Part shown: positions 26,300 to 57,540 of the stretch, one piece after another | Numbering within the stretch: position 1 is the first letter of the stretch | How the letters are laid out: every line of letters starts with the position of its first letter | Assembly: GCA_018896215.1 (NCBI GenBank) | Contig: JAHINB010000013.1 | Location: 17,946 to 81,945 of the forward strand | DNA length: 64,000 bases | Reading direction: 5' to 3' | Source: Patescibacteria group bacterium | Lineage (GTDB): Bacteria > Patescibacteriota > WWE3 > 0-14-0-20-40-13 | Notes under the pieces: generated by a model | What the model was told of the DNA's origin: nothing | Databases searched by the model: none | The model's input: the letters and a program-made list of their open reading frames with translations, nothing else | Position numbers and translations under genes: made by a program

Positions 26300-28860
26300 G
26301 CATCTTAAAATCGCTTTTTGATCTAAACAAAAAGAAAATTCAAAAACTTTACCCTTTGGTTCGTGAAATAAACCAGCAATGGGAAAATGTTAAAGATTGG
26401 AAAAATGAAGATTTTGCAAACCAGACAAGCAAGTTCCAAGACGACTTATTCAAGATTAAGGATTTAGCCCAAAAAGAAAAGTATCTCGAAAGCATTCTGC
26501 CTTTAGCTTTTGCTATGGTCAAGGAAGCAACTAAAAGAACCCAGGATAAAATTTTGCATGACGAGCAGTTGCTGGCGGGAATTGTCTTAAATAGCAAAGC
26601 TATAGCCGAACAAAAAACTGGTGAGGGAAAAACCAACACAGCAGTTCTAGCTTTGTATTTAAACTCACTTACAAAATTAGGCTGTCATTTGGTTACCCCA
26701 AACGACTATCTTTCCCGTCACGGCGCCGGATGGATGGGACCAATTTACAACCTGCTGGGCGTTTCGGTTTCGGTAATTATTCACGAAGCGTCTTATATCT
26801 ATGACCCAAGCTTTGAGAACGAAAAATTCTTAGACGAATACGCCAAAAACTTAAAACCTGTATCGCGAAAAGAGGCCTACGCCTGCAACATAACTTATGG
26901 AACCAACAACGAATTTGGTTTTGACTATTTGCGGGACAATATGGCAAATACATTATTAGGAATTGTACAAACTAATCCCCAAGGTGACGAAGGGTACCAC
27001 AATTTTGCCGTGGTGGATGAGGTTGACTCTTTGTTGATTGATGAAGCCAGAACTCCTCTTATTATCTCCGCCCCCGCCGAGGATTTAGCCTCCCGTTATA
27101 AGGAATTCTCTCAAATTGCCAACAAACTTGTCATTAAAACCGACTGCGAAATAGATGAAAAATTTAAAACTGCCACGCTTACCGATCTGGGAATTAGAAA
27201 AGTAGAAAGGTTTTTGGGTGTAGATAACTTGTACGAAAAGGATTTTGAAAGTATCCATCTAATCGAAAACGCCATTAGAGCAAACCATCTATATTTAAAA
27301 GACCGGGATTATGTAGTTCGCGAAGGCGAAATAATCATTGTAGATGAATTTACAGGAAGACTTATGCCGGGACGCCGATGGAGCGAGGGCTTGCACCAAG
27401 CAATTGAGGCAAAAGAAAGCGTTTCAATTCAAAAGGAGTCTAGAACGCTAGCTACTATTTCGTTTCAAAACTATTTTAGAATGTACCACAAGTTGGCTGG
27501 AATGACAGGAACCGCCGAAACCGAAGCCGAGGAATTTTACAAAATTTACGGGTTGGATGTTGTTGTTGTCCCCACTAATCTCCCAATTAAACGAGAGGAT
27601 TATCCCGACTTTGTTTATAAAACTAAAACCGCCAAATACCACGCTGTGGTGGCAGAAATTGAGGAGGCGACAAACCGTGGCCAACCAGTTTTGGTAGGTA
27701 CCACTTCCATCGAAAATAACGAGCTTTTATCTCGTTTGCTTTCTCATAAAGGGATAAAACACGAGGTGTTAAATGCCAAACAACACGAAAAAGAGGCCCA
27801 GATTATCTCTCAGGCGGGAAGAATTGGGGCGGTAACTCTTGCCACCAACATGGCAGGTCGTGGGGTGGACATTAAGCTTGGCGGAGATCCAACAACGACA
27901 GAGGAAAAACAGCAAGTCGAGACTCTTGGTGGACTCTTTGTAATTGGAACCGAACGACATGAAGCAAGACGGATTGACAACCAGCTCCGTGGGCGGGCGG
28001 GCAGGCAAGGAGAGTCGGGAGCTTCGCGATTTTTTGTTTCCTTGCAGGATGATTTAATGAGAATTTTTGGCGGGGCGCAAATTGAAGGTCTGATGACCCG
28101 TTTTAAAATGGACGAAAACACTCCGCTGGAATCGGGGATTGTTTCCAAAGCCATCGAAAACTCACAAAAAAAGGTCGAGGGTTTTAATTTTGACGCCCGA
28201 AAACGAGTTGTAGAATACGATGATGTGATGAATGTGCAAAGGAGTGCCATATACAAAATTCGCAAAAAGGTTCTCCTCCTAGAAAAATCCCTAACATCTC
28301 CAACAACCACTCTAGAGGAATTTGCTAACTGGTACACCAATAAAATTACCCCTTACTATGCAGAATTTACAACCATTTGGAGTAAGTACCAAAAACAATT
28401 CGGTCCGATGTGGCTAGAGGTGGTAAAACAAGAAACCTTGCGGGTAATTGATTTTTTGTGGATGGAACACTTGGATGGCATGGATGACCTGCGAGAAGGA
28501 ATTGGACTGCGCGGTTATGCTCAAATTGACCCTATTGTGGCATACAAAAAAGAGGGTCGGGAGATGTTCGAAAAGCTTTTGGCTAATATTTGGGGTACCC
28601 TGGGCGAGCGCTTTTCCAAAATTAATATCACATCAGAAGTCTCCCCCTCACCACAATCTACCCAATCCCCCCTATCTTCTCAAAGTTTAGTTTATCAACA
28701 CGCCTCTCCAGAACTCGGCGTTGCCGACGAAGCGCGCGAAATAGCCCAAGCTCAATCCCAAAAACCCAAAGACGAGGAAGGTCAAAAAATTGGGCGCAAT
28801 GACTTATGCCCCTGTGGAAGTGGCAAAAAATACAAACGCTGTCACGGCAAGCAGAAATAG
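26296..28860 (+). CDS. secA: preprotein translocase ATPase SecA
   Basis: 854 aa with DEAD-like motor motifs and the C-terminal zinc finger CPCGSGKKYKRCHG. Confidence 0.95.
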   Translation: MSILKSLFDLNKKKIQKLYPLVREINQQWENVKDWKNEDFANQTSKFQDDLFKIKDLAQKEKYLESILPLAFAMVKEATKRTQDKILHDEQLLAGIVLNSKAIAEQKTGEGKTNTAVLALYLNSLTKLGCHLVTPNDYLSRHGAGWMGPIYNLLGVSVSVIIHEASYIYDPSFENEKFLDEYAKNLKPVSRKEAYACNITYGTNNEFGFDYLRDNMANTLLGIVQTNPQGDEGYHNFAVVDEVDSLLIDEARTPLIISAPAEDLASRYKEFSQIANKLVIKTDCEIDEKFKTATLTDLGIRKVERFLGVDNLYEKDFESIHLIENAIRANHLYLKDRDYVVREGEIIIVDEFTGRLMPGRRWSEGLHQAIEAKESVSIQKESRTLATISFQNYFRMYHKLAGMTGTAETEAEEFYKIYGLDVVVVPTNLPIKREDYPDFVYKTKTAKYHAVVAEIEEATNRGQPVLVGTTSIENNELLSRLLSHKGIKHEVLNAKQHEKEAQIISQAGRIGAVTLATNMAGRGVDIKLGGDPTTTEEKQQVETLGGLFVIGTERHEARRIDNQLRGRAGRQGESGASRFFVSLQDDLMRIFGGAQIEGLMTRFKMDENTPLESGIVSKAIENSQKKVEGFNFDARKRVVEYDDVMNVQRSAIYKIRKKVLLLEKSLTSPTTTLEEFANWYTNKITPYYAEFTTIWSKYQKQFGPMWLEVVKQETLRVIDFLWMEHLDGMDDLREGIGLRGYAQIDPIVAYKKEGREMFEKLLANIWGTLGERFSKINITSEVSPSPQSTQSPLSSQSLVYQHASPELGVADEAREIAQAQSQKPKDEEGQKIGRNDLCPCGSGKKYKRCHGKQK

Positions 28861-28887
28861 GGATTATCCCAAATTTGGGATAATCCC
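28860..28887. terminator. perfect 28-nt palindrome between convergent secA and L,D-transpeptidase genes (bidirectional terminator candidate)
   Basis: GGGATTATCCCAAA|TTTGGGATAATCCC. Confidence 0.45.
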
Positions 28888-28898
28888 TAATCTTGTCT

Positions 28899-29567
28899 CT
28901 ATTCCGCAGGTGCCTCGCCGTAAATGATTACTTTTGTCCCAGGGTTTTCTGGGGTTGCTCTTGTTCCCCATTCTCCTTCTTTTAGTTCTGGGTTTGCCCA
29001 ATAAAACAATTGCTCTACTTCTTCTGTCTTCATATTAATACACCCATGACTCATAGGATGACCAAAGTTGCTATGCCAATAGGTTCCGTGAATTCCGTAT
29101 CCTCTCTCTTTTGGCACCTCATTATTGTAAAAATACATCGTGTAGGGAACATTCGGTAGATAGTAATAGGTATGCAAGGCCTTGGAGCCACCTGCCATAA
29201 GAGTATATCTAAGCTTAATCCAAATAGTAAATTCCCCAGTTGGGGTCCTTCCCCACTTTCCTGACGAAATTAAAAAATCGTAAACCTTCTCTTCTCCTTC
29301 GTAGGCATAAATCCTTTGATTCGTAAGATCTATTTCTAGTCTTTTATCGGAACTTGTCGCGCCAAGTACAGTTGTGGTGGGTTGGGATGTTGCTAGACGA
29401 GGCGTTGAGACTTTAACCCCATGAAAAACCCCCATTATTTGAGAGGTATCGTACATCCCAGTTAATTTTGTCAAGGAAAGAGGATTTTGCAAGTTTCTAG
29501 TAAGTTTAAAAAACGCCAAGAGGAGAGTAGCAACAATTAATAGAGAAAGTAAAAGTTTAAACCGCAT
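28899..29567 (-). CDS. L,D-transpeptidase (YkuD domain), N-terminal TM anchor
   Basis: Catalytic HGTYWHSNFGHPMSHGCINM (His and SHGC). Confidence 0.7.
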   Translation of the reverse strand: MRFKLLLSLLIVATLLLAFFKLTRNLQNPLSLTKLTGMYDTSQIMGVFHGVKVSTPRLATSQPTTTVLGATSSDKRLEIDLTNQRIYAYEGEEKVYDFLISSGKWGRTPTGEFTIWIKLRYTLMAGGSKALHTYYYLPNVPYTMYFYNNEVPKERGYGIHGTYWHSNFGHPMSHGCINMKTEEVEQLFYWANPELKEGEWGTRATPENPGTKVIIYGEAPAE

Positions 29568-29623
29568 AATGTTTCTATCATGGGTTAAACGAGCAATAAT
29601 TTCAAGAGCTTTTTTGGGGCTTG

Positions 29624-30187
29624 TTATCTCTTGGAGTATTGCGGAGCCTTTCGAGCCTTGCGTAAAAAAACCTTTTTGCTTTCGACTTCTCTGGAATCTC
29701 GGGTTAGTAAACCTGCAACTCGCAATTTTGCCCTAAATTCTTCGTTGTAGACCAGTAATGCCCGAGAAATTCCCAATACTACAGCGTCAATAAATCCAGT
29801 TTTTCCGCCACCTCTAACCTTTATTGACCCCGAAAATTTGGCTGCGGGGTGAGAAACTCCCACAATATGAAAAGGTTTTTGCCACAACAGCTTGTCGGCG
29901 TCTTTAGTAAAAAAATCGCCAATAGGTTTGTCATTAACCGTAATATCGCCTTTTTCATCATACAACCAAACCCTAGCAACGGATCTTTTTCTGCGACCCA
30001 ACCCCATAAATATTTTAGTTTTGCTTTTAGGTTGTTTTACTTCTTCTGTTTTTACAATATCTACCTTATCTACCTTATCGGATTTTGAAGATTTTAGAGG
30101 TTTTTTTGTTTTTTCCACAATCCCTTTATTTACCTTACTGATCTTCTTTTTCTTATTTATCTTATTTACCTTATTTGTTTTTTCCAT
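29624..30187 (-). CDS. rpsI: 30S ribosomal protein S9 with Lys-rich N-terminal extension
   Basis: The C-terminal ~125 aa are S9 (GGGKTGFIDAV...KKVFLRKARKAPQYSKR). The N-terminal ~60 aa are a K/V/N low-complexity region. Confidence 0.85.
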   Translation of the reverse strand: MEKTNKVNKINKKKKISKVNKGIVEKTKKPLKSSKSDKVDKVDIVKTEEVKQPKSKTKIFMGLGRRKRSVARVWLYDEKGDITVNDKPIGDFFTKDADKLLWQKPFHIVGVSHPAAKFSGSIKVRGGGKTGFIDAVVLGISRALLVYNEEFRAKLRVAGLLTRDSREVESKKVFLRKARKAPQYSKR

Positions 30188-30190
30188 AGA

Positions 30191-30625
30191 TTACTGTTTA
30201 ACTATTGCTTTTACCTGCCCTTCGTGCGGGTGCTTATCCCCAGCATAAATATATAAATTAGCCAACCACACTTTTCGCAGATTATTCCGCGGAAGCATTC
30301 CCGCCACCGCCCTTCTTAAAACCTCTCCGGGTCGGCGCTTTTGTAAATTTTTGTAAGTCTCCTCTTTTAGACCACCCATATAACCACTATGCCTAACATA
30401 GATTTTATCCTCTTCTTTGTTCCCGGTTACTTTTATTTTTAAAGCATTAACAACTACAATCTTGTCTCCCACAACCATATTTTTTACAAAATACGCCTTA
30501 TCCTTTCCCATAAGTATTTCTGCAATTTCGCAGGCTAATCTGCCCATAACCTTGTCTTTGGCATCTATTATCTGCCAATTGGTTTTTATGTCCGCTTTTT
30601 TTGTGGCGTAAGTCTTTTTGTTCAT
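30191..30625 (-). CDS. rplM: 50S ribosomal protein L13
   Basis: Full-length match to the L13 pattern (WQIIDAKDKVMGRLA...). Confidence 0.85.
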   Translation of the reverse strand: MNKKTYATKKADIKTNWQIIDAKDKVMGRLACEIAEILMGKDKAYFVKNMVVGDKIVVVNALKIKVTGNKEEDKIYVRHSGYMGGLKEETYKNLQKRRPGEVLRRAVAGMLPRNNLRKVWLANLYIYAGDKHPHEGQVKAIVKQ

Positions 30626-31074
30626 TTGGCTTTGGTTTTAACTTTCTTGGATTTTGTACTTGTCTTTTTTGCCTCTATATCTCCCTTATTCTCCACCGGT
30701 TTTACTTTAGGCAACTGTATAGTAAAACTAATTTTTGCCAGCTCTGCGGCATCTCCCGCTCTTATTCTGGTTCTTTTTATGCTTAAAAAACCGCTTGTTT
30801 TATCTTTAAACAACGGAGTAATTTCGTTAAAGAGCTTTTTTGCCGCCTTGGTATTATTCCCCAGTTTTGCAATTATATATCTGTAAGAGGCAAGGTTGTT
30901 TTTCTTTGCCATTGACACTAGTCTTTCGAGCAATGGTCGCACGCTCTTAGCCTTGGCAACGGTAGTTTCTATGCTACCTTTGTCAATTAGACTTATCATT
31001 AAGTCGCGGTGCAAAGCCTTTCTTGCCCCACCCGACCTTCCTAGTTTTTTAACCTTTTTAACTTGGTGCTTCAT
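30622..31074 (-). CDS. rplQ: 50S ribosomal protein L17 (Lys-rich C-terminal tail)
   Basis: LGRSGGARKALHRDLMISL..., the L17 core. Confidence 0.8.
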   Translation of the reverse strand: MKHQVKKVKKLGRSGGARKALHRDLMISLIDKGSIETTVAKAKSVRPLLERLVSMAKKNNLASYRYIIAKLGNNTKAAKKLFNEITPLFKDKTSGFLSIKRTRIRAGDAAELAKISFTIQLPKVKPVENKGDIEAKKTSTKSKKVKTKAK

Positions 31075-33888: not shown

Positions 33889-34668
33889 CTATCTAGTCAA
33901 TATCCTATAACCGTTCTCCGTTACTGCAACCATATCCTCTAACATTGCTGACAACTTACCGTCCTTTGTTTTAACTGTCCAGCCGTCACGAGAAACGGCA
34001 AGCTCTGGAGAGCCTGCTACATACATTACTTCTACACACAAAACCATTCCGCAAACAAGCGATACTCCAGAACTACATCTGCCAAAGCAAGGAATTTGTG
34101 GGTCTTCATGAAGCTCTTTTCCAATAGCGTGACCAGTAAGATCGCGAATAACATTATAGCCTGCTCTTTCGATAGTATTTTGGATTGTACAAGAAATATC
34201 TCCTACAAAATTTCCGGGTACAATAGCATTTATTGCTCTATCTAAAGCCAGCTGACCTATCTGCAAAAACTTTTTAGTTGCGGGATTTGGTTCCTGCCCT
34301 ACTACAATAGTCCGACACATGTCCGATTTCCAACCGCCAAATAAGGCGCCCATATCTAAAGATAATAGATCGCCTTTTTTAACCTTTCTTCCGCCCGGCA
34401 TTCCATGAACAACTTCATCGTTGATGCTAATGCAGGTAGAAAACTTGTAACCACCTTCACCAAGGAACGATGATTTGGCATGAAGCGATTTAAGTTGCGA
34501 AGAAACAAACTTGTCAATATTGGCTGTTTTAAGACCAGGGTGAATCCAACCTAAGGTTCTTTCCATCACCTTCTTGGCAATTTGGGCAGTAAGATAGATT
34601 TCTTCGATTTCTTGAGGGGTTTTAATGATTACCATAAGATTTAATTTTGTCGGATATTTGACGGGCAA
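33889..34668 (-). CDS. map: methionine aminopeptidase type I
   Basis: Metal-binding D/H/E pattern of pita-bread fold (HGMPG, DMGALFGGWKSDMCRT, HEDP). Confidence 0.85.
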   Translation of the reverse strand: MPVKYPTKLNLMVIIKTPQEIEEIYLTAQIAKKVMERTLGWIHPGLKTANIDKFVSSQLKSLHAKSSFLGEGGYKFSTCISINDEVVHGMPGGRKVKKGDLLSLDMGALFGGWKSDMCRTIVVGQEPNPATKKFLQIGQLALDRAINAIVPGNFVGDISCTIQNTIERAGYNVIRDLTGHAIGKELHEDPQIPCFGRCSSGVSLVCGMVLCVEVMYVAGSPELAVSRDGWTVKTKDGKLSAMLEDMVAVTENGYRILTR

Positions 34669-35161
34669 TTTCTTCTACGCTGGGACTTCCATCAACCTCA
34701 AGTAATTTGTTTTGCTTTCTAAAAAAATCCAACACTGGTTCGGTTAGTTGGTGATAAACCAAAAGCCGTTCTTTGATGATCTCCGGCGTGTCGTCACCTC
34801 GTCCCCGTTCGTTTAACCTTTTGATGCATTCTTCGTCGGTTAATTTGATATAAATAGCAAGATCAATGGGAGTTGAGGAATGTTCGGCTTGATACAAATC
34901 TCTTGGGGCGCCGTCCAAGGCAAAACCTTTGTCTTTTAGCTTAGAAAGATGTAAATCTATAATCTCAACCGCATCTTGATTATTTACTAAATGACCCCGA
35001 TCCATGGCGGTTTCGACTCGCGCACCAAGCGGGGTGTTATCTTGCTTTAGTTTTCTAAAAATATCACCAGTAGAAAGGTGCAAAACTCCAAGACTTTTGG
35101 CTAAAATCTCGGCTTGAGTAGACTTACCACTCCCCGGCATTCCCATAATAACTATATTCAT
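34622..35161 (-). CDS. adk: adenylate kinase (short form)
   Basis: P-loop GMPGSGKSTQAE and an NMP-binding region. 179 aa. Confidence 0.8.
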   Translation of the reverse strand: MNIVIMGMPGSGKSTQAEILAKSLGVLHLSTGDIFRKLKQDNTPLGARVETAMDRGHLVNNQDAVEIIDLHLSKLKDKGFALDGAPRDLYQAEHSSTPIDLAIYIKLTDEECIKRLNERGRGDDTPEIIKERLLVYHQLTEPVLDFFRKQNKLLEVDGSPSVEEIARQISDKIKSYGNH

Positions 35162-35220
35162 GAGTTGATTTTACCTCACAAACCGCTATTTACGAAACGG
35201 TATTTGCGCACCTATCAATT

Positions 35221-35249
35221 CGGGTACTACCCGAATCGGGTAGTACCCG
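35221..35249. repeat. perfect 29-nt palindrome
   Basis: CGGGTACTACCCGA-A-TCGGGTAGTACCCG, within the GC-rich insert between adk and the ybaB-like gene. Confidence 0.6.
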
Positions 35250-35454
35250 ATAATATCTTGCCACTAAAGGGTTCTTTTGAATACAGTGTTTCGTGTTGTT
35301 ATAGCAAGGAAAATTTACTATCAATTGCAACTGGATGCAGATGGAGTGGGGCACCTCTTAAACAACAAAAAGAAAAAGAAAAGGCGCTGGAGTCTCTCAT
35401 GATACATCAAGAGAAAATACCCCCAGCACCTTCCGCAACTTCCCCCCCACCGCA

Positions 35455-35818
35455 TCACTTGTTGGCATCGATACAATCGGAGAGGCTCTGCAAGAATGCC
35501 TTGGCGGATACATCGCCATATGGAAAACCCACGACATCGTATACGATGCGATGCCCCCCCCCCGATTTCAGCACGAAACACGGTACGCCACTCGTTAAGA
35601 CTCCCCATTCCTACCCGCAGAAAGATCACTCTGCGCCGTTTATCTTGTACAGCATGAGAGTAAGCTTCCACAGCCAAATGCAAGTGTCTGGGGTACAACA
35701 TAACGAGAACGATGTCGGCAGGTTCACCAATCTCATAATCATGAGCAAGGAGCAATTGCTCAATGATCCTGCGACCCTCGGGAACAAAGTCCTCGAACAG
35801 AAACAGTTTCTGCTTCAT
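35455..35818 (-). pseudogene. small GC-rich gene with strong Shine-Dalgarno, interrupted at a C10/G10 homopolymer (frameshift or phase-variable tract)
   Basis: AAAGGAGGAATCC then ATG at 35816-35818 (minus) opens a clean 85-codon frame (MKQKLFLFEDFVPEGRRIIEQLLLAHDYEIGEPADIVLVMLYPRHLHLAVEAY...RAEIGGG). It reaches ten consecutive C (35554-35563). The actual frame continues as R/C-rich low-plausibility sequence, whereas the -1 frame reads HRIVYDVVGFPYGDVSAKAFLQSLSDCIDANK then a stop. Confidence 0.4.
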
Positions 35819-35899
35819 GGATTCCTCCTTTGTGAGATTCCTCACTGATTTGTAGAGATTCGAGGGGGTAAGTGAGGTTATTATAACACAAAAAGCGAT

Positions 35900-36166
35900 T
35901 TAAAACCCAAAATCTCCCATTTGACCTTGCATTTTGTGGGCGACCTTTTTTTGGGCTTCTTTAACCGCTTTATTAAAAGCCTCCTTGAGACGCACATCCA
36001 ACTCGCCATCTACCCAAACCTCTTGCACATGATTATCTCCCTGCATCACGACTTTGATTCCTTTCTCCTCCACCTCAACAACAATCGCTTCCATTTGCTT
36101 CTTCATCTCATCAGCCTTCTTTTTCATCTCATAAAGTTTTTTTACATTGCCAAATGGTAGTGCCAT
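35900..36166 (-). CDS. YbaB/EbfC-family nucleoid-associated protein
   Basis: 88 aa, KE-rich helical protein with a C-terminal MQGQMGDFGF tail. Confidence 0.6.
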   Translation of the reverse strand: MALPFGNVKKLYEMKKKADEMKKQMEAIVVEVEEKGIKVVMQGDNHVQEVWVDGELDVRLKEAFNKAVKEAQKKVAHKMQGQMGDFGF

Positions 36167-38409: not shown

Positions 38410-38757
38410 CTAGAAAACTAATTTATTTTCCCTCGCCCCTTCGGCAACCGCTTTTACTCTACCATGATACTTATAACCCGAACGATCAAAAACCACTTTC
38501 TTAATCTTGGCATCAAGCGCTTTTTTTGCTACAGCTTTACCTACTTCGTAAGCCCTTTTGGTCTTTTTAGTTTTTGCATCCATCTTTAGATCGGAGCTTG
38601 CAACCAAAGTTACACCTTTTTCATCGTTTACTATTTGAGCATAAATATGCTTATGGGACCTAAAAACGCTTAGTCTAGGTCGTTCTTTGGTTCCTACTAC
38701 TTTTGCTCTAATTTTAGCTTTTATCCTCTCGCGAGGGCTTTTGTGTGTCACTTTCAT
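38410..38757 (-). CDS. rplR: 50S ribosomal protein L18
   Basis: [21 protein letters not shown]. Confidence 0.85.
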
Positions 38758-38909
38758 ATATTTATATACAAGCTTCGCTTATAACAAGATTTAAGAACAA
38801 ATACTAAAATGTTTCGCGTCAGCGAAAGCGTTACAAGCTCTGCTTATAGCGAAAGCGTTACAAGCTCTGCTTATAGCGAAAGCGTTACAAGCTCTGCTTA
38901 TAATGATCT
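38758..38909. repeat. E-family intercistronic repeat region (rplF-rplR spacer) including the tandem array
   Basis: CAAGCTTCGCTTATAACAAGATTTAAGAACAAATACTAAAATGTTTCGCGTC, then 3x27-bp units, then AATGATCTC. Confidence 0.7.
38821..38901. repeat. perfect tandem repeat, 3 x 27 bp (AGCGAAAGCGTTACAAGCTCTGCTTAT)
   Basis: Three identical contiguous units read directly from the sequence. Non-coding, between rplF stop and rplR start. Confidence 0.9.
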
Positions 38910-45809: not shown

Positions 45810-45905
45810 ATCTTATAACAAGATTCAAGAATAATTCCTATTAATTTCCTCGCCCACGGCGAGGGCGTTACATAGTTGCACGAGCTTGCTCGTGGAAATC
45901 TATGT
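45810..45905. repeat. E-family structured intercistronic repeat (rpsJ-rplC spacer)
   Basis: ATCTTATAACAAGATTCAAGAATAATTCCTATTAATTTCC, then hairpin CTCGCC-cacg-GGCGAGG, then GCGTTACATAG, then hairpin CACGAGC-tt-GCTCGTG, then GAAATCTATG. Confidence 0.7.
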
Positions 45906-49726: not shown

Positions 49727-50055
49727 GATCTTACAACAAAAAACTCCTATACGGAGTTTCCTCTTTTTAGCAAATTTTGCAACTAATAGCAACGGGTAAT
49801 CACAATCGGTTTGACACCGCACAATTTCCCCTTGACAAGAGTCGTATCTTATAGTAAAAACTGCTCACCTGTCAACTACTTGGAGAGAGCCTGTAAAAAG
49901 GGCTTCCCCTGCGCCTTTTGCGTCTTATCCCTGTCATAAAAATCAGTAAACGAAAAATGAATCGTGTTTCCCTCACTCTGTGGGGGAGATTCAGGCACCT
50001 TAAAAACTGAATAGCGAATTTCATCTTTTATCAAAGAAAGGAAAGGAGGTGTCCC

Positions 50056-50700
50056 TTGTTTGATTTAATAAAGGGAGCACTATGGGCGATGGCAGGAGCT
50101 TTCGGGGACATCTTCCTGCTGGTATTCAATGTCTTGTCCCCATTGTTATTTGACCCGCTAAAAGCGGGAGCGCTGGAGCTCCGTGGCAATGAGTCTGAAA
50201 AAGAGGCTCTAGAAAAGATTGCCACGGCGTTCAAGAGGAACAGGCGCCTTCGCTGGAAAGCTCTGGATCCCGAAAGGGATCCTGCTATGGTTGGTCTGTA
50301 TGTACTGACCAACAATCTCCGTTTCCTCTTTGAGCTCCTAGCAACACAGGTCTTGCTAGAGAGCTCCGCAGGAGGAGAAAGTATAACGCTGATCAAGCAT
50401 GTACGGTTCGGCTGGCTCCTGCGCCTTTTTAGTTTTGAAGGCTACGCGGAGCCAACCCCACTGACTGACATCACTCCCGCGAGAGGTGGCGATGTCACTT
50501 ATCTGCCGTGGAAGATCATCCATGGATCCTCCGGAGAGGTTGTGGAGACCGGTCTTCTCGTAAGGCTGGTCAATTTCCTGACCCAAAAGAGGGTAGTTCA
50601 ATTCTTGACCGCGTCGGGGGAAGCCGACATGTGGCAATTCCCAAACGCGGAGAGATCATGGCGCAAGCTGATGTGGTTGGTCGAAGTCACTACTCAATAA
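50056..50700 (+). CDS. island gene 1: hypothetical protein with N-terminal hydrophobic segment
   Basis: TTG start 6 nt after AAGGAGG. 214 aa. G+C-rich codons. No recognisable motif. Confidence 0.45.
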   Translation: MFDLIKGALWAMAGAFGDIFLLVFNVLSPLLFDPLKAGALELRGNESEKEALEKIATAFKRNRRLRWKALDPERDPAMVGLYVLTNNLRFLFELLATQVLLESSAGGESITLIKHVRFGWLLRLFSFEGYAEPTPLTDITPARGGDVTYLPWKIIHGSSGEVVETGLLVRLVNFLTQKRVVQFLTASGEADMWQFPNAERSWRKLMWLVEVTTQ

Positions 50701-50717
50701 AGGAAAGGAGAAATATC

Positions 50718-50993
50718 GTGTTTAGCAACAGTGTTCTTGCGGTTGCTGGGGTCGGCGCTGTGGCTTTGGCCGTCGCTGCGATCATCATCCTCTGGTCCTC
50801 GAAAGGCGAGGGGATCGGAGGGGTCGCGGGGGCGGTGGTGGCTGCTATGGCGCTGTTGTTGGGGCTTGGGGTTGTGGCGGCGACTGCCTTCGGCATTGCC
50901 TCCCATTCCTCAAGCTATTTCAGTATGTTTGATGGACTGGCGCAGTCATTCGGCCAGTTCGTCAGTAGAGTTGTCCAAATCTTCACCCCCTAA
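50718..50993 (+). CDS. island gene 2: 91-aa Gly/Ala-rich two-TM-helix protein (pilin/VirB2-TrbC-like or holin-like)
   Basis: GTG start 8 nt after AGGAG. Two hydrophobic helices (LAVAGVGAVALAVAAIIIL and VAAMALLLGLGVVAATAFGIA) separated by SSKGEGIGG. Confidence 0.45.
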   Translation: MFSNSVLAVAGVGAVALAVAAIIILWSSKGEGIGGVAGAVVAAMALLLGLGVVAATAFGIASHSSSYFSMFDGLAQSFGQFVSRVVQIFTP

Positions 50994-51003
50994 CGGGGCA
51001 GGA

Positions 51004-52044
51004 GGGAACGAGATGAAAATGAAACGGTTTCTGAAAACCGTCGCTCCCCTCGCTTCCCTCCTGCTTCTGGCGGGATGTACAGGAGGTGAGGGGGACGGTG
51101 TAGGAAAGATGGTCGCAGGAGTGATAGGGGAGCTTAAGGGGATCAGTGATCTGATTAAGTTCGGGATCATCGGTCCTCGAGTTGAGTTACCCCTTTCAGT
51201 TTGGGCAGGGATTGGCGGTCTCGCCTCCCTACTCATCTTAATCGGTTTCATTTTCACCGCGTGGATGTCCGCAAGGGCCTACGCGCGGCGCCAGCCTGTA
51301 GAGGACTGGGGAATCGGTTGGTTTCTGCTTCTGATGATGACCGGAATCTGGATTTTCTTATCCGGTTATCTGTTATCGGGGGCGTACCTAGAGTTCCCTG
51401 ATCTTGGGTTGGCGGATTTCGTTGTGAGGGGGATGGGGCTGATGGATCTTGCCGGGGGAGTATTGCTTCTCATGGCGGGTTTGGTCCTATTTTCCCTACG
51501 GATGATCATGTGGTCAATGTTGCTCGTGGCCGCCCTGTTTGTTCCAATCATTGCGGTAATCGCGCAATGGACAAACAGGCGTGGATTGATTGCGTACGCT
51601 TCAGTGCTGTTTTCTTACATCGTGTACGCGATGTACCCGTTCATCCTGGCGTTCGTCCTCAACACAGATCTTGGTCTACCCACCATTCCCCTGTTGGGAG
51701 GAGGCGGACTGATAAAAGCGGCAGTTCTAGTAATTACTGCCGGAGCGCTTCTCTTCTTCTTCCTGTTTGGTCCTTTGCTTCTGCGAAAAGTGTTCACGGC
51801 GATCGCGCCGAAAGAAACCGTTCTGCAAAGGGAGCCAAACAGGCTAGAGCCGGAGGAGATCGTTGCTTTGGTAATGTCCGCCCTTGCCCTCTTAACCGGG
51901 GGCGGACTGGAAGCGGCTCTAGCGCACATCTTCGGGCCTCTCTCCAAGAGGCTTGGAGTTGATGTTGGTGGAGTTGTCGATGGAGTGAAAAACGCCACCC
52001 GCAGTGGCAACACCGCAGCGGCAAATCCAGAACCCCCGGCGTAG
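51004..52044 (+). CDS. island gene 3: polytopic membrane lipoprotein (VirB6/TrbL-like topology)
   Basis: GGAGG RBS. Signal peptide with lipobox LLLAGC. About seven further hydrophobic helices and a hydrophilic C-terminal tail. Confidence 0.5.
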   Translation, partial: GNEMKMKRFLKTVAPLASLLLLAGCTGGEGDGVGKMVAGVIGELKGISDLIKFGIIGPRVELPLSVWAGIGGLASLLILIGFIFTAWMSARAYARRQPVEDWGIGWFLLLMMTGIWIFLSGYLLSGAYLEFPDLGLADFVVRGMGLMDLAGGVLLLMAGLVLFSLRMIMWSMLLVAALFVPIIAVIAQWTNRRGLIAYASVLFSYIVYAMYPFILAFVLNTDLGLPTIPLLGGGGLIKAAVLVITAGALLFFFLFGPLLLRKVFTAIAPKETVLQREPNRLEPEEIVALVMSALALLTGGGLEAALAHIFGPLSKRLGVDVGGVVDGVKNATRSGNTAAANPEPPA

Positions 52045-52063
52045 CGCGGGGAGGGAGGAAACC

Positions 52064-54010
52064 ATGTTGAGTATTTTGGCTCGAGTAGGAGAGCCCTTAG
52101 GGGATCTGATGTATACAATCCTCCTGTGGGCTTTGGATACGCGGTGGAGCCGCAAGCTCCGCCCGTATCTGCTGGTCTTTCTCTTCCTCCCCGCGTCTCT
52201 TTTTCTCTCTCAACTGCTTCACCCAGCGGGACCCGTCGTGGTTCTGGGCGGTTTGGGAGCGATTTTCGCGATTGGTATCGCCTACAAGTCTTGGGCGATG
52301 CTTCCGCGGAGATTTGGGAGAGAAAAGAGAAAGAGGGGTTGGATTGAGGAAGTCGTTGGAGAGGCAATGAGACTCTTGGGATTTGCCTCTCCGTTGGAAT
52401 CGCTGTTTTCGGTCAACGGATATCCAGTGTGGGAGATTACCTATCCGCCCGAGCAACCGGGGGAAACAATCCTCGGAAACTCCGGTAGAGTCCGGTTGAT
52501 TTCCACACCTGTAGGGTTGGAAGTTCCGGGGTTCCTCGCGGCAACGCGGGCGGACTCGAAAGATCCACCATTCGTGGCGGAAGCTCTAAAGAGTATCGGA
52601 GATTTCGCCCTTCCTGGGAGTGGATCCCTATGGCCTCGTCGGCTAGTCCGCCAAATCTTGCTCACGGCAGATATGCCATCAGAGCAAGCGCCGGATGTGC
52701 CTCTTGGTAGATTGCTGGAGCCGAGGGCTGTTCGTCTTAAGACGGAAGCGCTTTTAGCAAGTTCCGGAGCGACCGAAAGTACCCCAAGGGTTGAGGAGGT
52801 TTTGACCTACGGGGGAACCGCGGTTGCTAAGTTTGGCAAAGCGGGAACGCGGAAGTGCGCTTTCGTGGAGCTTAGACCTCGCTGTTTGGGTTTCGGCAAG
52901 AACCTTCCGCTTTCGGAGGCGCTAAATCGGCTTCTGTCTAAAGGCTATCCTATTTCCTTTGAAGCCGAAAGGATCGCCTCCGGCACCGTCTTTGGACGGC
53001 TGACGGCAATGGTTCTTCTCAAGAACGGCCGAGGGTCGTTGAAGCGGGCGTTGGGCGAGTTCCGCTCTGCAGGATTCGAAATCCCGTTGCTGGGGAGCTC
53101 CAAGACTGGAGCGTCCGGACTCTTCCGTCGCTTCCTTCCGGAAACGGAAATTGAAGCTAGCGGAGGATTCTCTTTGACGGCAGAAGAGTTTTGCCTAGTC
53201 TCCGATGCCCTTTGTTCTAGTGTCGGTTCGGCATCACGCGATCCCGACGAGGCACTGTTCGTCGGGTTGCGGGGCAGAACCCCGTGTTTTCTCGAACCCC
53301 GACCCCACGAACTCCGCACCGGGGTCCAGGGATCGGGCAAGACCACTGGCGTGAACTCGAGTCTCCTCCAAAGAACTGGTGGGAGATTTGTGGGAATCAT
53401 CAGTGGCACTGATCCCAAGGCAAGCACTCTGGCAATGGTGTGTGATGCGGGGGGTAAGGTTGTTGATGTTTGTGGAAACGACAGTGAAAAAACTGGACGG
53501 GCATGTGTGGCGGAAGCAATCGGGTTCCTTCAACAGGGAAAACCGTTCACCATCCGCCCTATCGGTGTGGAGTTCACACCACAACTCGTCCAGTTCGCAA
53601 TCGGCTTCGTTGACGAGTTCACCAAGGAGGTTCCCAAGGCCGACTGGTCCGCGGTTCTTCCTGCAGGTCGGCATCTGGGACTTTTGGTGGATGACCTCTT
53701 CCGTCTCCTCGCCGCTAGGGCAACCTATAGCATGGAGGCAGAGGTTGACAGACTTCTCGCTATCTTAGAAACAGCAATGTCGGAGCTGTGGAAGCCAATT
53801 CCCGGTGGGTACCCAGGATGCATTGTCGCAGTGACGACACAGGCTCCAGGAGATCCACCTCAAACGATGTATGACAAGTTTGGTATCGTTATACATCATC
53901 AAGGTCCGAAATCCGCCGTGATTTCTAGGTATTTGGATTGGGAACCAACATCAATCAACACCTGGATCTCCAACAAGGATCTGCACAACCTCGTTTCGGC
54001 TCGGCGGTAA
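52064..54010 (+). CDS. island gene 4: membrane-anchored ASCE P-loop ATPase (FtsK/TraB/VirD4/VirB4-like)
   Basis: GGAGGGAGG RBS. Two or three N-terminal TM helices. Walker A GVQGSGKTTGV (aa ~419-429) and Walker B AIGFVDEF (~aa 512-519) about 95 aa apart. About 130 aa follow the Walker B. Confidence 0.55.
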   Translation: MLSILARVGEPLGDLMYTILLWALDTRWSRKLRPYLLVFLFLPASLFLSQLLHPAGPVVVLGGLGAIFAIGIAYKSWAMLPRRFGREKRKRGWIEEVVGEAMRLLGFASPLESLFSVNGYPVWEITYPPEQPGETILGNSGRVRLISTPVGLEVPGFLAATRADSKDPPFVAEALKSIGDFALPGSGSLWPRRLVRQILLTADMPSEQAPDVPLGRLLEPRAVRLKTEALLASSGATESTPRVEEVLTYGGTAVAKFGKAGTRKCAFVELRPRCLGFGKNLPLSEALNRLLSKGYPISFEAERIASGTVFGRLTAMVLLKNGRGSLKRALGEFRSAGFEIPLLGSSKTGASGLFRRFLPETEIEASGGFSLTAEEFCLVSDALCSSVGSASRDPDEALFVGLRGRTPCFLEPRPHELRTGVQGSGKTTGVNSSLLQRTGGRFVGIISGTDPKASTLAMVCDAGGKVVDVCGNDSEKTGRACVAEAIGFLQQGKPFTIRPIGVEFTPQLVQFAIGFVDEFTKEVPKADWSAVLPAGRHLGLLVDDLFRLLAARATYSMEAEVDRLLAILETAMSELWKPIPGGYPGCIVAVTTQAPGDPPQTMYDKFGIVIHHQGPKSAVISRYLDWEPTSINTWISNKDLHNLVSARR

Positions 54011-54045
54011 TCGGTCCATCAAGCAAACCCCCAAAGGAGGGCGGA

Positions 54046-55395
54046 ATGGACGACTGGGAAGAGATCTTAAGCCTTAAGTGGCTCCTGTCCACCGCCCTCC
54101 AATCATTTGCTATCGTTGCGACAGTTTGCGCGATGGCATTGGTTGCGGGGGCGGTTTTAGTTTTCGCCTTCCTATTTGACAAAACTGGGGGGGCGATTTG
54201 GGATGTACTGCTAAAGGAAGCGGGAATTTTTGTCCCGCGTGTTGTCTGCACGGAAGTAGAAACGCTGACGGCAGTGGGAGAATCCTCATATGAATTTCAA
54301 CAGAACTACGATGGTGGTAGTGAGGATAGCGCATGGGCGCTTCTTCCCGCTGGAGTTCAACGCTGGCGCGGTCTTCTGGAAGAAACGGCTCTGCGCCACG
54401 GCTTTGACCCTCTGATGTTCGGGGTCATTGCCACAATTGAGAATCCTGCCGGTAACCCCACCGCGGGATCCTGGGCGGGCGCCCAAGGGTTGGTTCAAGT
54501 GATGCCGTTCAACTTTACGGCTAACGAAACCGACCACTTTGATCCCGCGACAAATCTGGAGGCGGGAGCGAGAGTCTTTGCTTCCTGTCTCCGTCTGGCG
54601 GGGGGAGATTTCCGCTTGGCGGGCGCCTGTTACAATGCAGGACCCCGCATCCTGCGGATGAACCTTGCCAACTGGTTTGCCGAAACTCTGTTATATTATC
54701 GCCGCTCGGCGATATATGACGAGATTCGGCAAGGTAGGACTAACACGCTAGATTCATGGCTGGGAGGTCATGGGGGCGCTGTCATGGCGTCAGGAGCGGA
54801 AGCTCCGAGCGCGACAGGCGCTACTACCCAAACCTCCCAAGTATGCAAAATTTGTCTTGTTCCCAACCCCAATGACGGACTGCTGGGGTTTTTGGGAACA
54901 GCGTTGGAGCTTCTGGGGTTGGGACCTTCCAGTCCCTGCTCCGAAGTCTCGGCTTCAACATATCAATCCTCTGCCACAGTGGTGGCGGGGGGGAATGGCA
55001 GTTGGCGCTATCCGGTGGAGGGCGCCACGGTATCGGACGGTCCGTGGCACAAAATCCCAGCGCTGGATTTTATGGTCTCGCTGGGAACACCGGTGGTGAG
55101 CGCCCACACGGTTCCAGCAACCGTGGAATACTCTGGATGCAACAATGCCGGAGGATACGGATGCTGGGTTCTGCTGATGCACGACGACGGTAAGTCAACC
55201 GTCTATGTGCATTTGGACGAGAGTCTTCCTGTCAAGACCGGCGATCGGGTGGATGCGTCCACTTTGCTTGGCCGGGTCGGTTTGACGGGAAAAACCTCTG
55301 GACCCCACCTGCACTTCGAGGTGCGGGAAGGGTTGTATAACCATATAGATCCCGCAGAAGTGTTCGGGGAGATTGGAAAAGGAGGTCTAAAATGA
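54046..55395 (+). CDS. island gene 5: membrane-anchored bifunctional peptidoglycan hydrolase, SLT lytic transglycosylase + M23 peptidase
   Basis: AAAGGAGG RBS. N-terminal TM helix. SLT motifs ATIENPAGN, GAQGLVQVMP, ACYNAGP. M23 motifs H..D (HKIPALD) and TGKTSGPHLHFEVREG. Confidence 0.65.
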   Translation: MDDWEEILSLKWLLSTALQSFAIVATVCAMALVAGAVLVFAFLFDKTGGAIWDVLLKEAGIFVPRVVCTEVETLTAVGESSYEFQQNYDGGSEDSAWALLPAGVQRWRGLLEETALRHGFDPLMFGVIATIENPAGNPTAGSWAGAQGLVQVMPFNFTANETDHFDPATNLEAGARVFASCLRLAGGDFRLAGACYNAGPRILRMNLANWFAETLLYYRRSAIYDEIRQGRTNTLDSWLGGHGGAVMASGAEAPSATGATTQTSQVCKICLVPNPNDGLLGFLGTALELLGLGPSSPCSEVSASTYQSSATVVAGGNGSWRYPVEGATVSDGPWHKIPALDFMVSLGTPVVSAHTVPATVEYSGCNNAGGYGCWVLLMHDDGKSTVYVHLDESLPVKTGDRVDASTLLGRVGLTGKTSGPHLHFEVREGLYNHIDPAEVFGEIGKGGLK

Positions 55396-56609: not shown

Positions 56610-56636
56610 CCTTCCAACTTCCCATGGCGCCACTGG

Positions 56637-56688
56637 AAGCGGAGGAAATCTTGGGCTAGCACAGCCAAGGTCTTCTCCGCTTTTTTTA
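56637..56688 (+). terminator. intrinsic terminator candidate at the island 3' end
   Basis: AAGCGGAG ... CTCCGCTT stem enclosing an internal hairpin, followed by TTTTTTT. Confidence 0.45.
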
Positions 56689-56697
56689 TAACAAAAT

Positions 56698-57540
56698 TTA
56701 ATAAATCCCAAGTTCTATTGCAGTTTTAATTTGGGGAATGTCGGTGGGGATTTTAATGTGAGAAAGACTATTACCTTTAAAGCTTTGGATAATTTTTACC
56801 CCGGCGCAATCAATTGCCACCCTTCCAGTTGATGCCAAAAGCAAATTTGGTTCCCTTATTTCCCCCTCTGTAGGTCCTCGGGTGATAAAACATTTTCGAG
56901 CGTCCATAATTACCAAGTCTGGCTTGATAACAGTATTGATTAAAGCGACTTTTTCTTGCAAGTTTTTAAGATGCATTCTAATGCGCTCTATTGGTTTAAC
57001 AAAACCAACTGTTAGCTTTAACGCCCCAGTGTACTGCGCCTGTTTGTGAGTTTTTAAACAGGGAACATAAATTATCTTATCGGCTTTAGTTACAATTTCT
57101 GGAATAGAAACGCTTTTTAGAATTGGGGAGGAGATTGCGGATTTAACCCATCTCCCTTCCTCAAAAACATACATTCTTGGAGGAGTATCCGAATTTAATA
57201 ACTCGAATACCCCCTTCTTTTCCATAATCTTTCGCGTGTTTAAAGTAACTGTAGAGGAATCGCCAATGGCAACAAGTTTTGCCCCATGCTGATACAATAG
57301 TTCGGTAAGACATTTTAAAAATTCCACATCGGAGGAGGCGGGAAAGGGGTCAGCGGTATTAAAATTGGGTTTAACAAAGACTACATCTCCTGTGCTGATA
57401 AATCTCTTAAACCCACCAAGCTCTTCAACCAAGTTGTGGATGGATTCTTTTAAATTAGCTTTGGGAGTGATTTTTACAACTTTTATCAACAGACAATCAA
57501 TGAATCGGTCTAACCTGCATGACACTCGCGGAAACAGCAT
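56698..57540 (-). CDS. DUF362-family protein
   Basis: DVVFVKPNFNTADPFP ... TVGFVKP pattern of DUF362. Low-GC host-like composition. The exact start is uncertain (non-ATG start in the ORF track). Confidence 0.45.
   Translation of the reverse strand: MLFPRVSCRLDRFIDCLLIKVVKITPKANLKESIHNLVEELGGFKRFISTGDVVFVKPNFNTADPFPASSDVEFLKCLTELLYQHGAKLVAIGDSSTVTLNTRKIMEKKGVFELLNSDTPPRMYVFEEGRWVKSAISSPILKSVSIPEIVTKADKIIYVPCLKTHKQAQYTGALKLTVGFVKPIERIRMHLKNLQEKVALINTVIKPDLVIMDARKCFITRGPTEGEIREPNLLLASTGRVAIDCAGVKIIQSFKGNSLSHIKIPTDIPQIKTAIELGIY

What the first reader, a model, noticed from the sequence alone, without database searches (positions are those of the whole stretch)
35165..35880. Second GC-rich insertion, between adk and a ybaB-like gene, carrying an SD-equipped small gene broken at a C10 homopolymer plus a perfect 29-nt palindrome
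The ~0.7-kb spacer is visibly richer in G+C than its neighbours. On the minus strand AAAGGAGGAATCC-ATG opens a clean 85-codon frame that hits ten consecutive C (35554-35563). The actual frame continues as implausible R/C-rich sequence to 35321. The -1 frame (as if 9 C) gives a sensible 32-residue C-terminus and a stop at 35455-35457. So this is either a homopolymer sequencing error or a slippage-prone contingency tract. A perfect palindrome CGGGTACTACCCGA-A-TCGGGTAGTACCCG lies at 35221-35249. Like the large island, this is foreign-looking DNA lodged inside the ribosomal gene cluster.
Basis: seen in the sequence. Interest (0 to 1): 0.6.

Follow-up and report, generated by a model that had tools for sequence, protein, structure and literature searches.

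The report
Orphan small gene with unstable G-run
A 0.7-kb G+C-rich stretch inside the ribosomal gene cluster of an uncultured Patescibacteria bacterium holds a small gene with no relatives outside this species; a run of 9 or 10 G leaves it intact in four public assemblies and broken in four, this window among the broken ones.

Summary
C10 at 35554-35563 is the longest homopolymer in the window. The 35320-35830 core has 0.49-0.53 G+C against a 0.40 background. The palindrome is real and is 31 nt long (35220-35250).

On the minus strand there is a compact unit: a TGTTATAAT -10-like box, a strong Shine-Dalgarno (SD) site, an ORF and a strong hairpin-plus-U terminator. With G9 the ORF gives a 120-aa protein; with G10 it gives a 165-aa product with a junk tail.

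Eight independent assemblies of this one species (99.4-99.9% identical) split 4:4 between G9 and G10. The ORF has no other difference among them. The tract is the only single-base homopolymer indel in about 20 kb compared.

The protein is an orphan. Pfam, NCBIfam, PADLOC, PHROGs and PDB give nothing, and two searches of billions of proteins find only itself. A low-confidence model looks like a CheY-type receiver.

In about 70 of 80 relatives secY abuts adk, so the gene is lineage-specific.

Best reading: an accessory gene cassette with a slippage-prone poly-G tract and real on/off alleles. Without reads, an assembly artefact cannot be excluded, nor can simple decay of the gene. Interest is modest.

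The parts
35900..36166 (-). ybaB/ebfC-like gene (88 aa), the upstream neighbour. It is also absent from the secY-adk junction in most relatives.
   Evidence: Pfam YbaB_DNA_bd, E 4.3e-9. Among the 80 relatives, a ybaB-like gene at this junction was seen only in L062 (tblastn) and L039 (gap ORF).
35880..35888 (-). Extended -10-like box TGTTATAAT, 12 nt after the ybaB stop codon. Inferred promoter of the small gene.
   Evidence: Read from the sequence. TGTTATAAK occurs 6 times in the window against 1.5 expected; three of the six lie in intergenic spacers of the ribosomal cluster on the coding strand. Function is inferred, not shown.
35824..35831 (-). Shine-Dalgarno sequence AAAGGAGG, 5 nt upstream of the ATG at 35818.
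   Evidence: Read from the sequence. Identical in all 8 assemblies.
35564..35818 (-). Codons 1-85 of the orphan ORF (MKQKLFLFEDF...FRAEI).
   Evidence: G+C by codon position over the G9-corrected ORF is 0.61/0.34/0.55. No substitutions among 8 assemblies.
35554..35563 (-). Poly-G tract (C10 on the + strand), encoding Gly86-88. G10 here is out of frame; G9 in four other assemblies is in frame.
   Evidence: Longest homopolymer in the window. Host Gly-Gly-Gly runs never use GGGGGGGGG.
35455..35553 (-). The last 32 codons plus the TGA stop of the ORF, in the G9 frame (HRIVYDVVGFPYGDVSAKAFLQSLSDCIDANK*).
   Evidence: The model predicts a C-terminal helix at residues 105-118; residues 87-105 are below pLDDT 50.
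35321..35553 (-). The tail actually read in this window's G10 allele: 77 codons rich in R, C and W, running through the terminator to a stop at 35321-35323.
35442..35448 (-). A second G run (G7), starting 6 nt after the G9-frame stop codon. Its length is the same wherever it is fully covered.
   Evidence: The Logan contig L003 ends inside it.
35360..35433 (-). Intrinsic-terminator-like element: a compound hairpin (35433-35380) followed by a U-rich run (UUUUCUUUUUCUUUUUGUUGUUU).
   Evidence: Hairpin -30.1 kcal/mol, z -4.7. A second allele in L118 differs at about 10 positions, yet it keeps the same fold and energy (-36.6 against -35.8 kcal/mol), and its stem substitutions turn G-U pairs into Watson-Crick pairs.
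35298..35306 (-). TGCTATAAC, a second extended -10-like box. Inferred restart promoter for adk and the genes downstream of it.
   Evidence: Read from the sequence only. The consensus scan did not flag it. Inferred.
35220..35250 (.). Perfect 31-nt palindrome, also readable as two 15-nt palindromes (TCGGGTA-C/G-TACCCGA) 16 bp apart. It lies in the presumed adk leader or operator region.
   Evidence: As RNA it forms a 14-bp hairpin of -26.6 kcal/mol, z -6.8. It is unique in the window and absent from the loci of the 80 relatives. Identical in every assembly that covers it.
34622..35161 (-). adk, the downstream neighbour.
   Evidence: PF00406 on the identical gene product in L001 and L002; ORF list.

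Best explanation
The spacer is a lineage-specific accessory gene cassette lodged between ybaB and adk in the spc ribosomal cluster of one Patescibacteria (Microgenomates-like) species.

It is built as a transcription unit of its own: a -10-like box (TGTTATAAT), a strong SD site, a 120-codon ORF and, 21 nt after the stop codon, a strong intrinsic terminator. Downstream lie a second -10-like box and the 31-nt palindrome, which most likely restart transcription of adk-map-infA and regulate or structure its leader.

The ORF encodes a small cytoplasmic alpha/beta protein, possibly with a CheY-like fold but lacking the phospho-acceptor aspartate. It has no detectable relatives.

Codons 86-88 are a G9 run. 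Slipped-strand mispairing changes its length, so natural populations carry an in-frame allele (G9, gene ON) and an out-of-frame allele (G10, gene OFF, as in this window).

Shown: the anatomy, the orphan status, the absence from relatives, and both alleles in independent assemblies. Inferred: promoter use, terminator function, real rather than artefactual length variation, reversibility of the switch, and the protein's fold and role.
For: - Alleles: G9 in L001, L002, L003 and L118; G10 in the window, L004, L005 and L087. These are eight separate assemblies, 99.4-99.9% identical to one another.
- The tract is the only single-base homopolymer indel among these assemblies over about 20 kb.
- The tract state and the SNP at 37735 occur in all four combinations, so the allele is not tied to one haplotype.
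- Three GGG codons in a row are not expected from host usage: GGG makes up 21% of Gly codons, and no host Gly-Gly-Gly run is a homopolymer.
- Coding signs: the SD site, the ATG, a codon-position G+C of 0.61/0.34/0.55, and a regular beta-alpha pattern in the model.
- The stop codon is followed by a canonical terminator. A divergent allele (L118) keeps its fold through pair-preserving changes.
- The + strand ORF changes frame between strains, so the coding strand is the minus strand.
- In about 70 of 80 relatives secY abuts adk.
- Orphan status.
Against: - No reads were available, so length heterogeneity within a sample is untested. Homopolymers of 9-10 bases are where Illumina reads and assemblers are least reliable (my own knowledge).
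- The tract lies at 71% of the ORF, not near the 5' end where classic contingency tracts sit.
- No other tract of 8 or more G/C exists in the window, so there is no sign of a genome-wide phase-variation repertoire.
- With no substitutions in the ORF among the 8 assemblies, there is no evidence of purifying selection and no comparative proof that it is translated.
- An open frame of at least 120 codons arises in 14% of Markov shuffles of the spacer.
- The promoters are consensus reads only.
- The structural model has a pLDDT of 56.
Confidence: 0.5

Rival explanations
1. Sequencing or assembly artefact. The organism has a single tract length (probably G9, with the gene intact everywhere), and G10 in the window, L004, L005 and L087 is a homopolymer miscall.
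For: The only difference within the ORF is one base in a 9-10-nt homopolymer. All the data are short-read metagenome assemblies (record names). Two Logan contigs break close by, one at the G7 run and one at the palindrome centre, which shows the region is hard to assemble.
Against: The split is 4:4 across eight datasets with different record sources (ENA, NCBI, JGI, Logan). An occasional consensus error would not be expected in half of them. No other homopolymer (A8, T8, C7) differs anywhere in about 20 kb. Consensus calling normally recovers the majority length at 9-10 bases (my own knowledge).
Confidence: 0.2
2. One-way decay. The cassette is a dispensable, recently acquired gene, and G10 is an ordinary inactivating mutation at a mutational hot spot that is spreading or drifting. 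It is not a reversible switch kept by selection.
For: The gene is an orphan of foreign composition, with no relatives outside this species and no known role. Half of the assemblies carry the broken form. The tract lies late in the ORF. It is the only long G/C tract in 64 kb.
Against: No second disabling mutation is seen in any G10 allele. The tract state is not congruent with flanking SNPs, since all four combinations occur; this points to repeated change or recombination rather than one clonal loss. The promoter-like box, SD site and terminator are all intact in G10 genomes.
Confidence: 0.2
3. Not a protein gene. The G+C-rich stretch is non-coding, for example a structured RNA or a scrap of foreign DNA, and the 120-codon frame is accidental.
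For: There are no homologues and no substitutions with which to test selection. Open frames of at least 120 codons occur in 14% of shuffles. The 296 nt downstream of the stop fold unusually well (z -5.0).
Against: A perfect SD site at the right spacing before an ATG, a coding-like G+C periodicity, an alternating beta-alpha pattern, and a stop codon followed by a terminator. Rfam gives nothing near its thresholds. Gene callers in four pipelines called this ORF.
Confidence: 0.05
4. Remnant of a small mobile element, such as an IS200/IS605-type element. Those are about 0.7 kb, carry one small ORF and have subterminal hairpins.
For: The size is about 0.7 kb, with a single small ORF. The ORF contains an H-L-H motif (PRHLHLAV) that resembles the HUH motif. 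There is a strong hairpin near one end.
Against: Pfam Y1_Tnp gives no hit even at E up to 10. hhalign against four solved TnpA sequences gives a probability of 1% over 18 residues. The two ends carry no similar hairpins, and the 12-nt inverted match at the ends is at chance level. There is no second copy in the window and none in the viral or metagenome collections.
Confidence: 0.04

Closest known systems
Homopolymeric-tract (poly-G/C) contingency loci of Campylobacter, Neisseria and Haemophilus. Reviewed for Campylobacter in PMC8355987; general survey of coding homopolymeric tracts in PMC2831843.
   Same: A run of 9-10 G inside an ORF whose length sets the reading frame, with in-frame and out-of-frame alleles among near-identical genomes.
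   Different: Switching within a population and reversibility are untested. The tract sits at 71% of the ORF rather than near the start. The gene is a cytoplasmic orphan, not a surface or modification gene. There is no repertoire of such tracts in the 64 kb. The host is a Patescibacteria bacterium; in the held library the only paper holding both 'Patescibacteria' and 'phase variation' concerns archaeal DNA methylation.
'Moron'-type accessory cassettes: a single extra gene with its own promoter and terminator and a deviant G+C content, inserted between two genes (concept from lambdoid phage genomics; my own knowledge).
   Same: The layout of -10 box, SD site, one ORF and an intrinsic terminator; a G+C and GC3 well above the host's; inserted between genes that are adjacent in relatives.
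   Different: It is not in a prophage. It lies in the ribosomal spc cluster of a chromosome. No phage, plasmid or viral-contig match was found.
Single-domain CheY-like receiver (REC) proteins
IS200/IS605 insertion sequences
   Same: A 0.7-kb unit with one small ORF and strong hairpins.
   Different: There is no TnpA homology, no matching end hairpins and only a single copy.

Membership tests
Simple-sequence-repeat contingency (phase-variable) locus | A long homopolymer within the ORF or promoter | tested here: met
   G10 at 35554-35563, inside codons 86-88. It is the longest run in 64 kb.
Simple-sequence-repeat contingency (phase-variable) locus | Tract length differs among closely related genomes and toggles the reading frame | tested here: met
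   G9 in four and G10 in four of eight assemblies that are 99.4-99.9% identical; the products are 120 aa and 165 aa. This holds at the level of assemblies only.
Simple-sequence-repeat contingency (phase-variable) locus | High-frequency, reversible length change within one population | not testable with these tools
   This needs raw reads or cultures. The only indirect hint is that all four combinations of tract state and SNP 37735 occur.
Simple-sequence-repeat contingency (phase-variable) locus | The tract is not explained by codon usage or composition | tested here: met
   GGG makes up 21% of host Gly codons. The four host Gly-Gly-Gly runs use mixed codons. No other G/C run exceeds 7.
Rho-independent (intrinsic) terminator | A G+C-rich hairpin followed directly by a U run, downstream of a stop codon | tested here: met
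   Hairpin at 35433-35380, -30.1 kcal/mol, z -4.7, followed by a U-rich run of 23 nt. It starts 21 nt after the TGA stop. The simple scan missed it because of that scan's loop and stem limits.
Rho-independent (intrinsic) terminator | The structure is kept when the sequence changes | tested here: met
   The L118 allele has about 10 changed positions. Three stem substitutions turn G-U pairs into Watson-Crick pairs, and the architecture and energy are the same. This rests on only two alleles.
IS200/IS605 element | Encodes a Y1 HUH transposase (TnpA) | tested here: not met
   No Pfam hit at E up to 10. hhalign against four solved TnpA sequences gives a probability of 1%. No TnpA sequence appears among the hits.
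IS200/IS605 element | Similar subterminal hairpins at both ends, and multiple copies | tested here: not met
   The ends carry unrelated structures. No second copy is in the window.
Response-regulator receiver (REC) domain | Matches the family profile, with the acidic pocket and the phospho-acceptor Asp | tested here: not met
   No Pfam hit. hhalign gives a probability of 1.5%, over the N-terminal 35 residues only. Only a low-confidence fold resemblance remains.
TIR domain | Matches the family profile, with the catalytic Glu | tested here: not met
YbaB/EbfC family (the upstream neighbour) | Match to Pfam PF02575 above its gathering score | tested here: met
   36.8 bits against a cut-off of 25.5.

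The most novel reading that the evidence does not exclude
The tract may do more than switch the orphan gene. In the G9 allele ribosomes stop 21 nt before the terminator hairpin, so the terminator can form. In the G10 allele the open frame carries ribosomes across the hairpin and the U run, to 35321. That could suppress termination and let transcription from upstream run on into adk-map-infA-rpmJ-rpsM and the genes beyond. On this reading, poly-G length is a heritable, stochastic switch on read-through within the ribosomal gene cluster of a Patescibacteria bacterium. It would also be the first contingency locus described in that group. The unusually long open frame of the G10 allele (192 codons stop to stop; at least 174 codons arise in 0.65% of shuffles) is compatible with this reading but does not show it.
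Probability: 0.06. Interest if true: 0.7.

Novelty: new member of a known kind. Interest (0 to 1): 0.3.

Why it matters
If the length variation is real, this is a natural on/off polymorphism of a species-specific gene in an uncultured, small-genome bacterium. Homopolymer-driven switching has not been described for that group in the library searched. The site is also notable, because the ribosomal gene cluster is usually among the most conserved gene orders known.

There is a practical point too. Homopolymer frameshifts in metagenome-assembled genomes are routinely written off as errors. Here eight assemblies split evenly, so the site is a good test case for read-level checks.

If it is an artefact, the finding reduces to one more orphan hypothetical gene.

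Tried and rejected
- Family searches with the 120-aa protein gave no hit at E up to 10: Pfam, NCBIfam, PADLOC and PHROGs.
- PDB sequence search gave only two marginal, unrelated hits.
- The word-indexed search of 5.8 billion proteins and an exhaustive phmmer of 1.84 billion representatives found only the protein itself and its frameshifted form. Two further hits are repeat-protein noise: P0003 and P0004 are low-complexity repeats.
- Viral contigs hold no relative of the protein. blastn of the spacer against phage and plasmid records found nothing. The metagenome scan returned only the JGI contig already held.
- Rfam gave only sub-threshold noise.
- IS200 TnpA idea, prompted by the PRHLHLAV motif and the 0.7-kb size: hhalign probability 1%. 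Rejected.
- TIR and REC membership by profile comparison: probabilities 0.1% and 1.5%. Rejected as family claims.
- The + strand ORF of 227-244 codons: no Pfam hit. Its one database relative, P0006, is the same locus in L118, read through different frames. It is therefore not a conserved gene.
- Flanking direct or inverted repeats that might mark element ends: only chance-level matches.
- The palindrome half-site elsewhere: absent from the loci of the 80 relatives. The 30 single hits in viral contigs are about what I estimate chance would give for a 15-mer.
- No sequence is shared with the large G+C-rich island at 49.9-56.7 kb.
- The afdb50 fold library was unavailable.

Full report
**What is there.** The window is a stretch of about 40% G+C that carries the S10-spc-alpha ribosomal cluster on the minus strand. 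Between the ybaB-like gene (35900-36166; Pfam YbaB_DNA_bd, E 4e-9) and adk (34622-35161) lie 738 bp. Ten C at 35554-35563 form the longest homopolymer of any base in the 64 kb. G+C is 0.49-0.52 in 300-nt windows over 35300-35800. The 360-nt maximum of 0.528 is 3.6 SD above the background of 0.396 +/- 0.036, and no window outside the large island reaches it. The palindrome is in fact 31 nt long, with 15-nt arms around one base at 35220-35250, and each arm is itself a 7-1-7 palindrome.

**Anatomy on the minus strand.** Reading 5' to 3', the elements are as follows.
- TGTTATAAT (35888-35880) lies 12 nt after the ybaB stop codon. This 9-mer class occurs 6 times against 1.5 expected, and three of the six are in intergenic spacers of the cluster.
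- AAAGGAGG (35831-35824) is followed by 5 nt and then ATG at 35818.
- 85 codons follow, then the G run.
- With G9 there are 32 more codons and a TGA stop at 35455-35457.
- A G7 run starts 6 nt after the stop (35448-35442).
- A compound hairpin spans 35433-35380 (-30.1 kcal/mol, z -4.7), followed by UUUUCUUUUUCUUUUUGUUGUUU, which is a textbook intrinsic terminator.
- TGCTATAAC lies at 35306-35298.
- The palindrome folds as a 14-bp hairpin of -26.6 kcal/mol, z -6.8.
- The SD site and ATG of adk come last.

In this window's G10 allele the frame instead runs through the terminator to 35321, adding 77 residues rich in R, C and W.

**Related sequences.** The corrected 120-aa protein exists verbatim in public data as P0001, NCBI MFH1388561.1, a 'hypothetical protein' of a Patescibacteria MAG. 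The frameshifted forms exist too, as P0002 and P0005. Fetching their contigs, plus one found through the + strand ORF, gave seven further assemblies of the same species, 99.4-99.9% identical to the window.

| Tract | Assemblies |
|---|---|
| G9 | L001 (GCA_043812435.1), L002 (ENA ERZ928008), L003 (Logan SRR27458548), L118 (GCA_043827225.1) |
| G10 | window, L004 (JGI 3300014656), L005 (Logan SRR6514274), L087 (ENA ERZ27247128) |

Three further points follow.
- Across the ORF there is no other difference among the eight.
- Across about 20 kb the tract is the only single-base homopolymer indel. The other indels are a 9-bp one, a 25-27-bp one and a compensating pair.
- Tract state and the SNP at 37735 occur in all four combinations. 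The allele is therefore not a marker of one clone. The cause is recurrent change, recombination or error.

**Is the ORF a gene, and on which strand?**
- In favour: a perfect SD site at the right spacing; G+C by codon position of 0.61/0.34/0.55, with GC3 far above the host's value of about 0.35; a regular beta-alpha pattern in the AlphaFold model; and a stop codon followed by a terminator.
- The terminator gains support from L118. That allele differs at about 10 positions within 50 nt (35391-35440) and nowhere else in the spacer apart from the tract and one SNP. Its three stem substitutions convert G-U pairs to Watson-Crick pairs, and the fold and energy are unchanged (-36.6 against -35.8 kcal/mol).
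- The + strand has a strikingly long open frame in the C10 allele: 227 codons, which none of 2000 Markov shuffles reached (maximum 213). PGAP even called a + strand ORF in L118 (P0006). However, that ORF is stitched from different frames than the window's, because of the 3-nt and 1-nt indels and the C9 tract. The + strand is therefore not under coding constraint.
- Caveat: with no substitutions in the ORF, selection cannot be measured. A frame of 120 codons alone is not rare (14% of shuffles).

**What the protein is.** By sequence it is unclassifiable.
- There is no hit in Pfam, NCBIfam, PADLOC or PHROGs at E up to 10, and nothing meaningful among PDB sequences.
- The search of 5.8 billion proteins and an exhaustive phmmer of 1.84 billion representatives find only itself.
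- The single-sequence model is weak (pLDDT 56, pTM 0.43) but shows an alternating strand-helix order.
- Profile tests for REC, TIR and IS200 TnpA all fail, with probabilities of 1.5%, 0.1% and 1%.

I therefore describe it only as a small cytoplasmic alpha/beta protein, possibly receiver-like but without the phospho-acceptor residues. This is an inference of low confidence.

**Is it an insertion?** Among the 80 closest species representatives (SecY 41-58% identical; Gottesmanbacteria, Daviesbacteria and other Microgenomates-type MAGs), about 70 have adk within roughly 100 bp of secY. None has the orphan. A ybaB-like gene at this junction appears only in L062 and L039, both WWE3. A few relatives carry other inserts at the same junction: a GIY-YIG-motif ORF with a second small ORF, a large purD-like ORF, a guanylate-kinase-like ORF and an L33-like ORF (named by eye from the translations). 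The junction therefore tolerates insertions, and this one is lineage-specific. No donor was found in phage, plasmid, viral or metagenome collections. Nothing is shared with the large 55% G+C island at 49.9-56.7 kb.

**Mechanism.** I commit to this reading: an accessory one-gene cassette with its own promoter, SD site and terminator, whose ORF contains a slippage-prone poly-G run. G9 gives the full protein. G10, as in this window, truncates the native sequence after residue 88. The alleles coexist in nature. A second promoter-like box then restarts adk, and the double palindrome acts as an operator or leader hairpin.
- Shown: the anatomy, both alleles, the orphan status and the lineage specificity.
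- Inferred: promoter and terminator use, real as opposed to artefactual variation, reversibility, and the protein's fold and function.

My estimates are 0.5 for this reading, 0.2 for a pure assembly artefact, 0.2 for non-adaptive decay, and about 0.05 each for non-coding DNA and for a mobile-element remnant.

**Comparison and novelty.** The closest known kind is the poly-G/C contingency locus of Campylobacter, Neisseria and Haemophilus (PMC8355987; PMC2831843 for coding homopolymeric tracts in general). Two defining features are met at the level of assemblies. The decisive one, switching within a population, cannot be tested here. The cassette layout resembles phage 'morons', but nothing links it to a phage. 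The only paper in the held library that holds both 'Patescibacteria' and 'phase variation' concerns archaeal DNA methylation. I file the finding as a new member of a known kind, of modest interest (0.3). The most novel reading left open is that the G10 frame drives ribosomes through the terminator and so couples tract length to read-through into the downstream ribosomal-cluster genes (probability about 0.06).

Noticed in passing
window 49900-56700: A large island of 0.53-0.56 G+C on the opposite strand, between fusA and a DUF362 gene followed by rpsG. Its ORFs are 437, 668, 485 and 405 aa. Only the 485-aa ORF has Pfam domains (SLT transglycosylase plus Peptidase_M23), a pairing seen in conjugation and phage lysis modules (my own knowledge). 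It shares no sequence with the small insertion.
   Followed up: partly
window 45815-45900: An 86-bp segment between rpsJ and rplC that is present in the window but replaced by a single base in L001, L002, L087 and L118. It contains two short G+C hairpins (CACGAGC-AA-GCTCGTG and CCTCGCC-GTG-GGCGAGG) and is followed a few bases later by CTTGTTATAAG, the same -10-like motif as upstream of the orphan gene.
   Followed up: partly
window 38756-38905: A 27-bp unit (TATAAGCAGAGCTTGTAACGCTTTCGC) is repeated three times in tandem between rplF and rplR. The alignment overlaps suggest its copy number differs among assemblies. L002 also lacks 25 bp at 38756-38780.
   Followed up: no
window 28400-30800: A block of dense differences, about 50 SNPs plus a 9-bp in-frame indel, between the window and L001, L002, L087 and L118. 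It covers the 3' end of secA, ykuD, rpsI and rplM. The flanking regions differ by about 1 per kb or less. It looks like a recombination import.
   Followed up: no
L118 positions matching window 35391-35440: All differences specific to L118 in the spacer cluster in the terminator hairpin and the few bases before it. The stem changes make the inverted repeat more perfect (G-T becomes G-C or A-T). This is the signature expected of template-switch 'correction' of quasi-palindromes (my own knowledge). Logan contig L003 ends just where the two alleles diverge, which suggests both alleles occur in that sample.
   Followed up: partly
window 35282-35298 and 35569-35585: A 17-nt inverted repeat matching at 15 of 17 positions. 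It links the ORF sequence just upstream of the G tract with the start of the presumed adk leader. My estimate of the number of such matches expected by chance is about 0.03. Its meaning is unknown.
   Followed up: no
window 35165-35848, + strand: In the C10 allele the + strand is open for 227 codons, which none of 2000 Markov shuffles reached. NCBI's pipeline annotated a + strand ORF here in GCA_043827225.1 (P0006). The frames differ between strains, so it is most likely a by-product of the antisense strand of a G+C-rich gene.
   Followed up: yes
L022, L029, L042, L028, L040, L039, L062 (secY-adk junction): Several relatives carry different small inserts at the same junction: an ORF with a GIY-YIG-like motif plus a second small ORF, a large purD-like ORF, a guanylate-kinase-like ORF, an L33-like ORF and ybaB-like ORFs. 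The names are by eye from the translations; no family search was run on them. The junction appears to be a recurrent insertion point in Patescibacteria.
   Followed up: partly
L005 end (window 35234) and L003 end (window 35444): Two Logan contigs stop at the centre of the 31-nt palindrome and inside the G7 run respectively. These are probably assembly-graph breaks caused by the palindrome and by allelic divergence.
   Followed up: no
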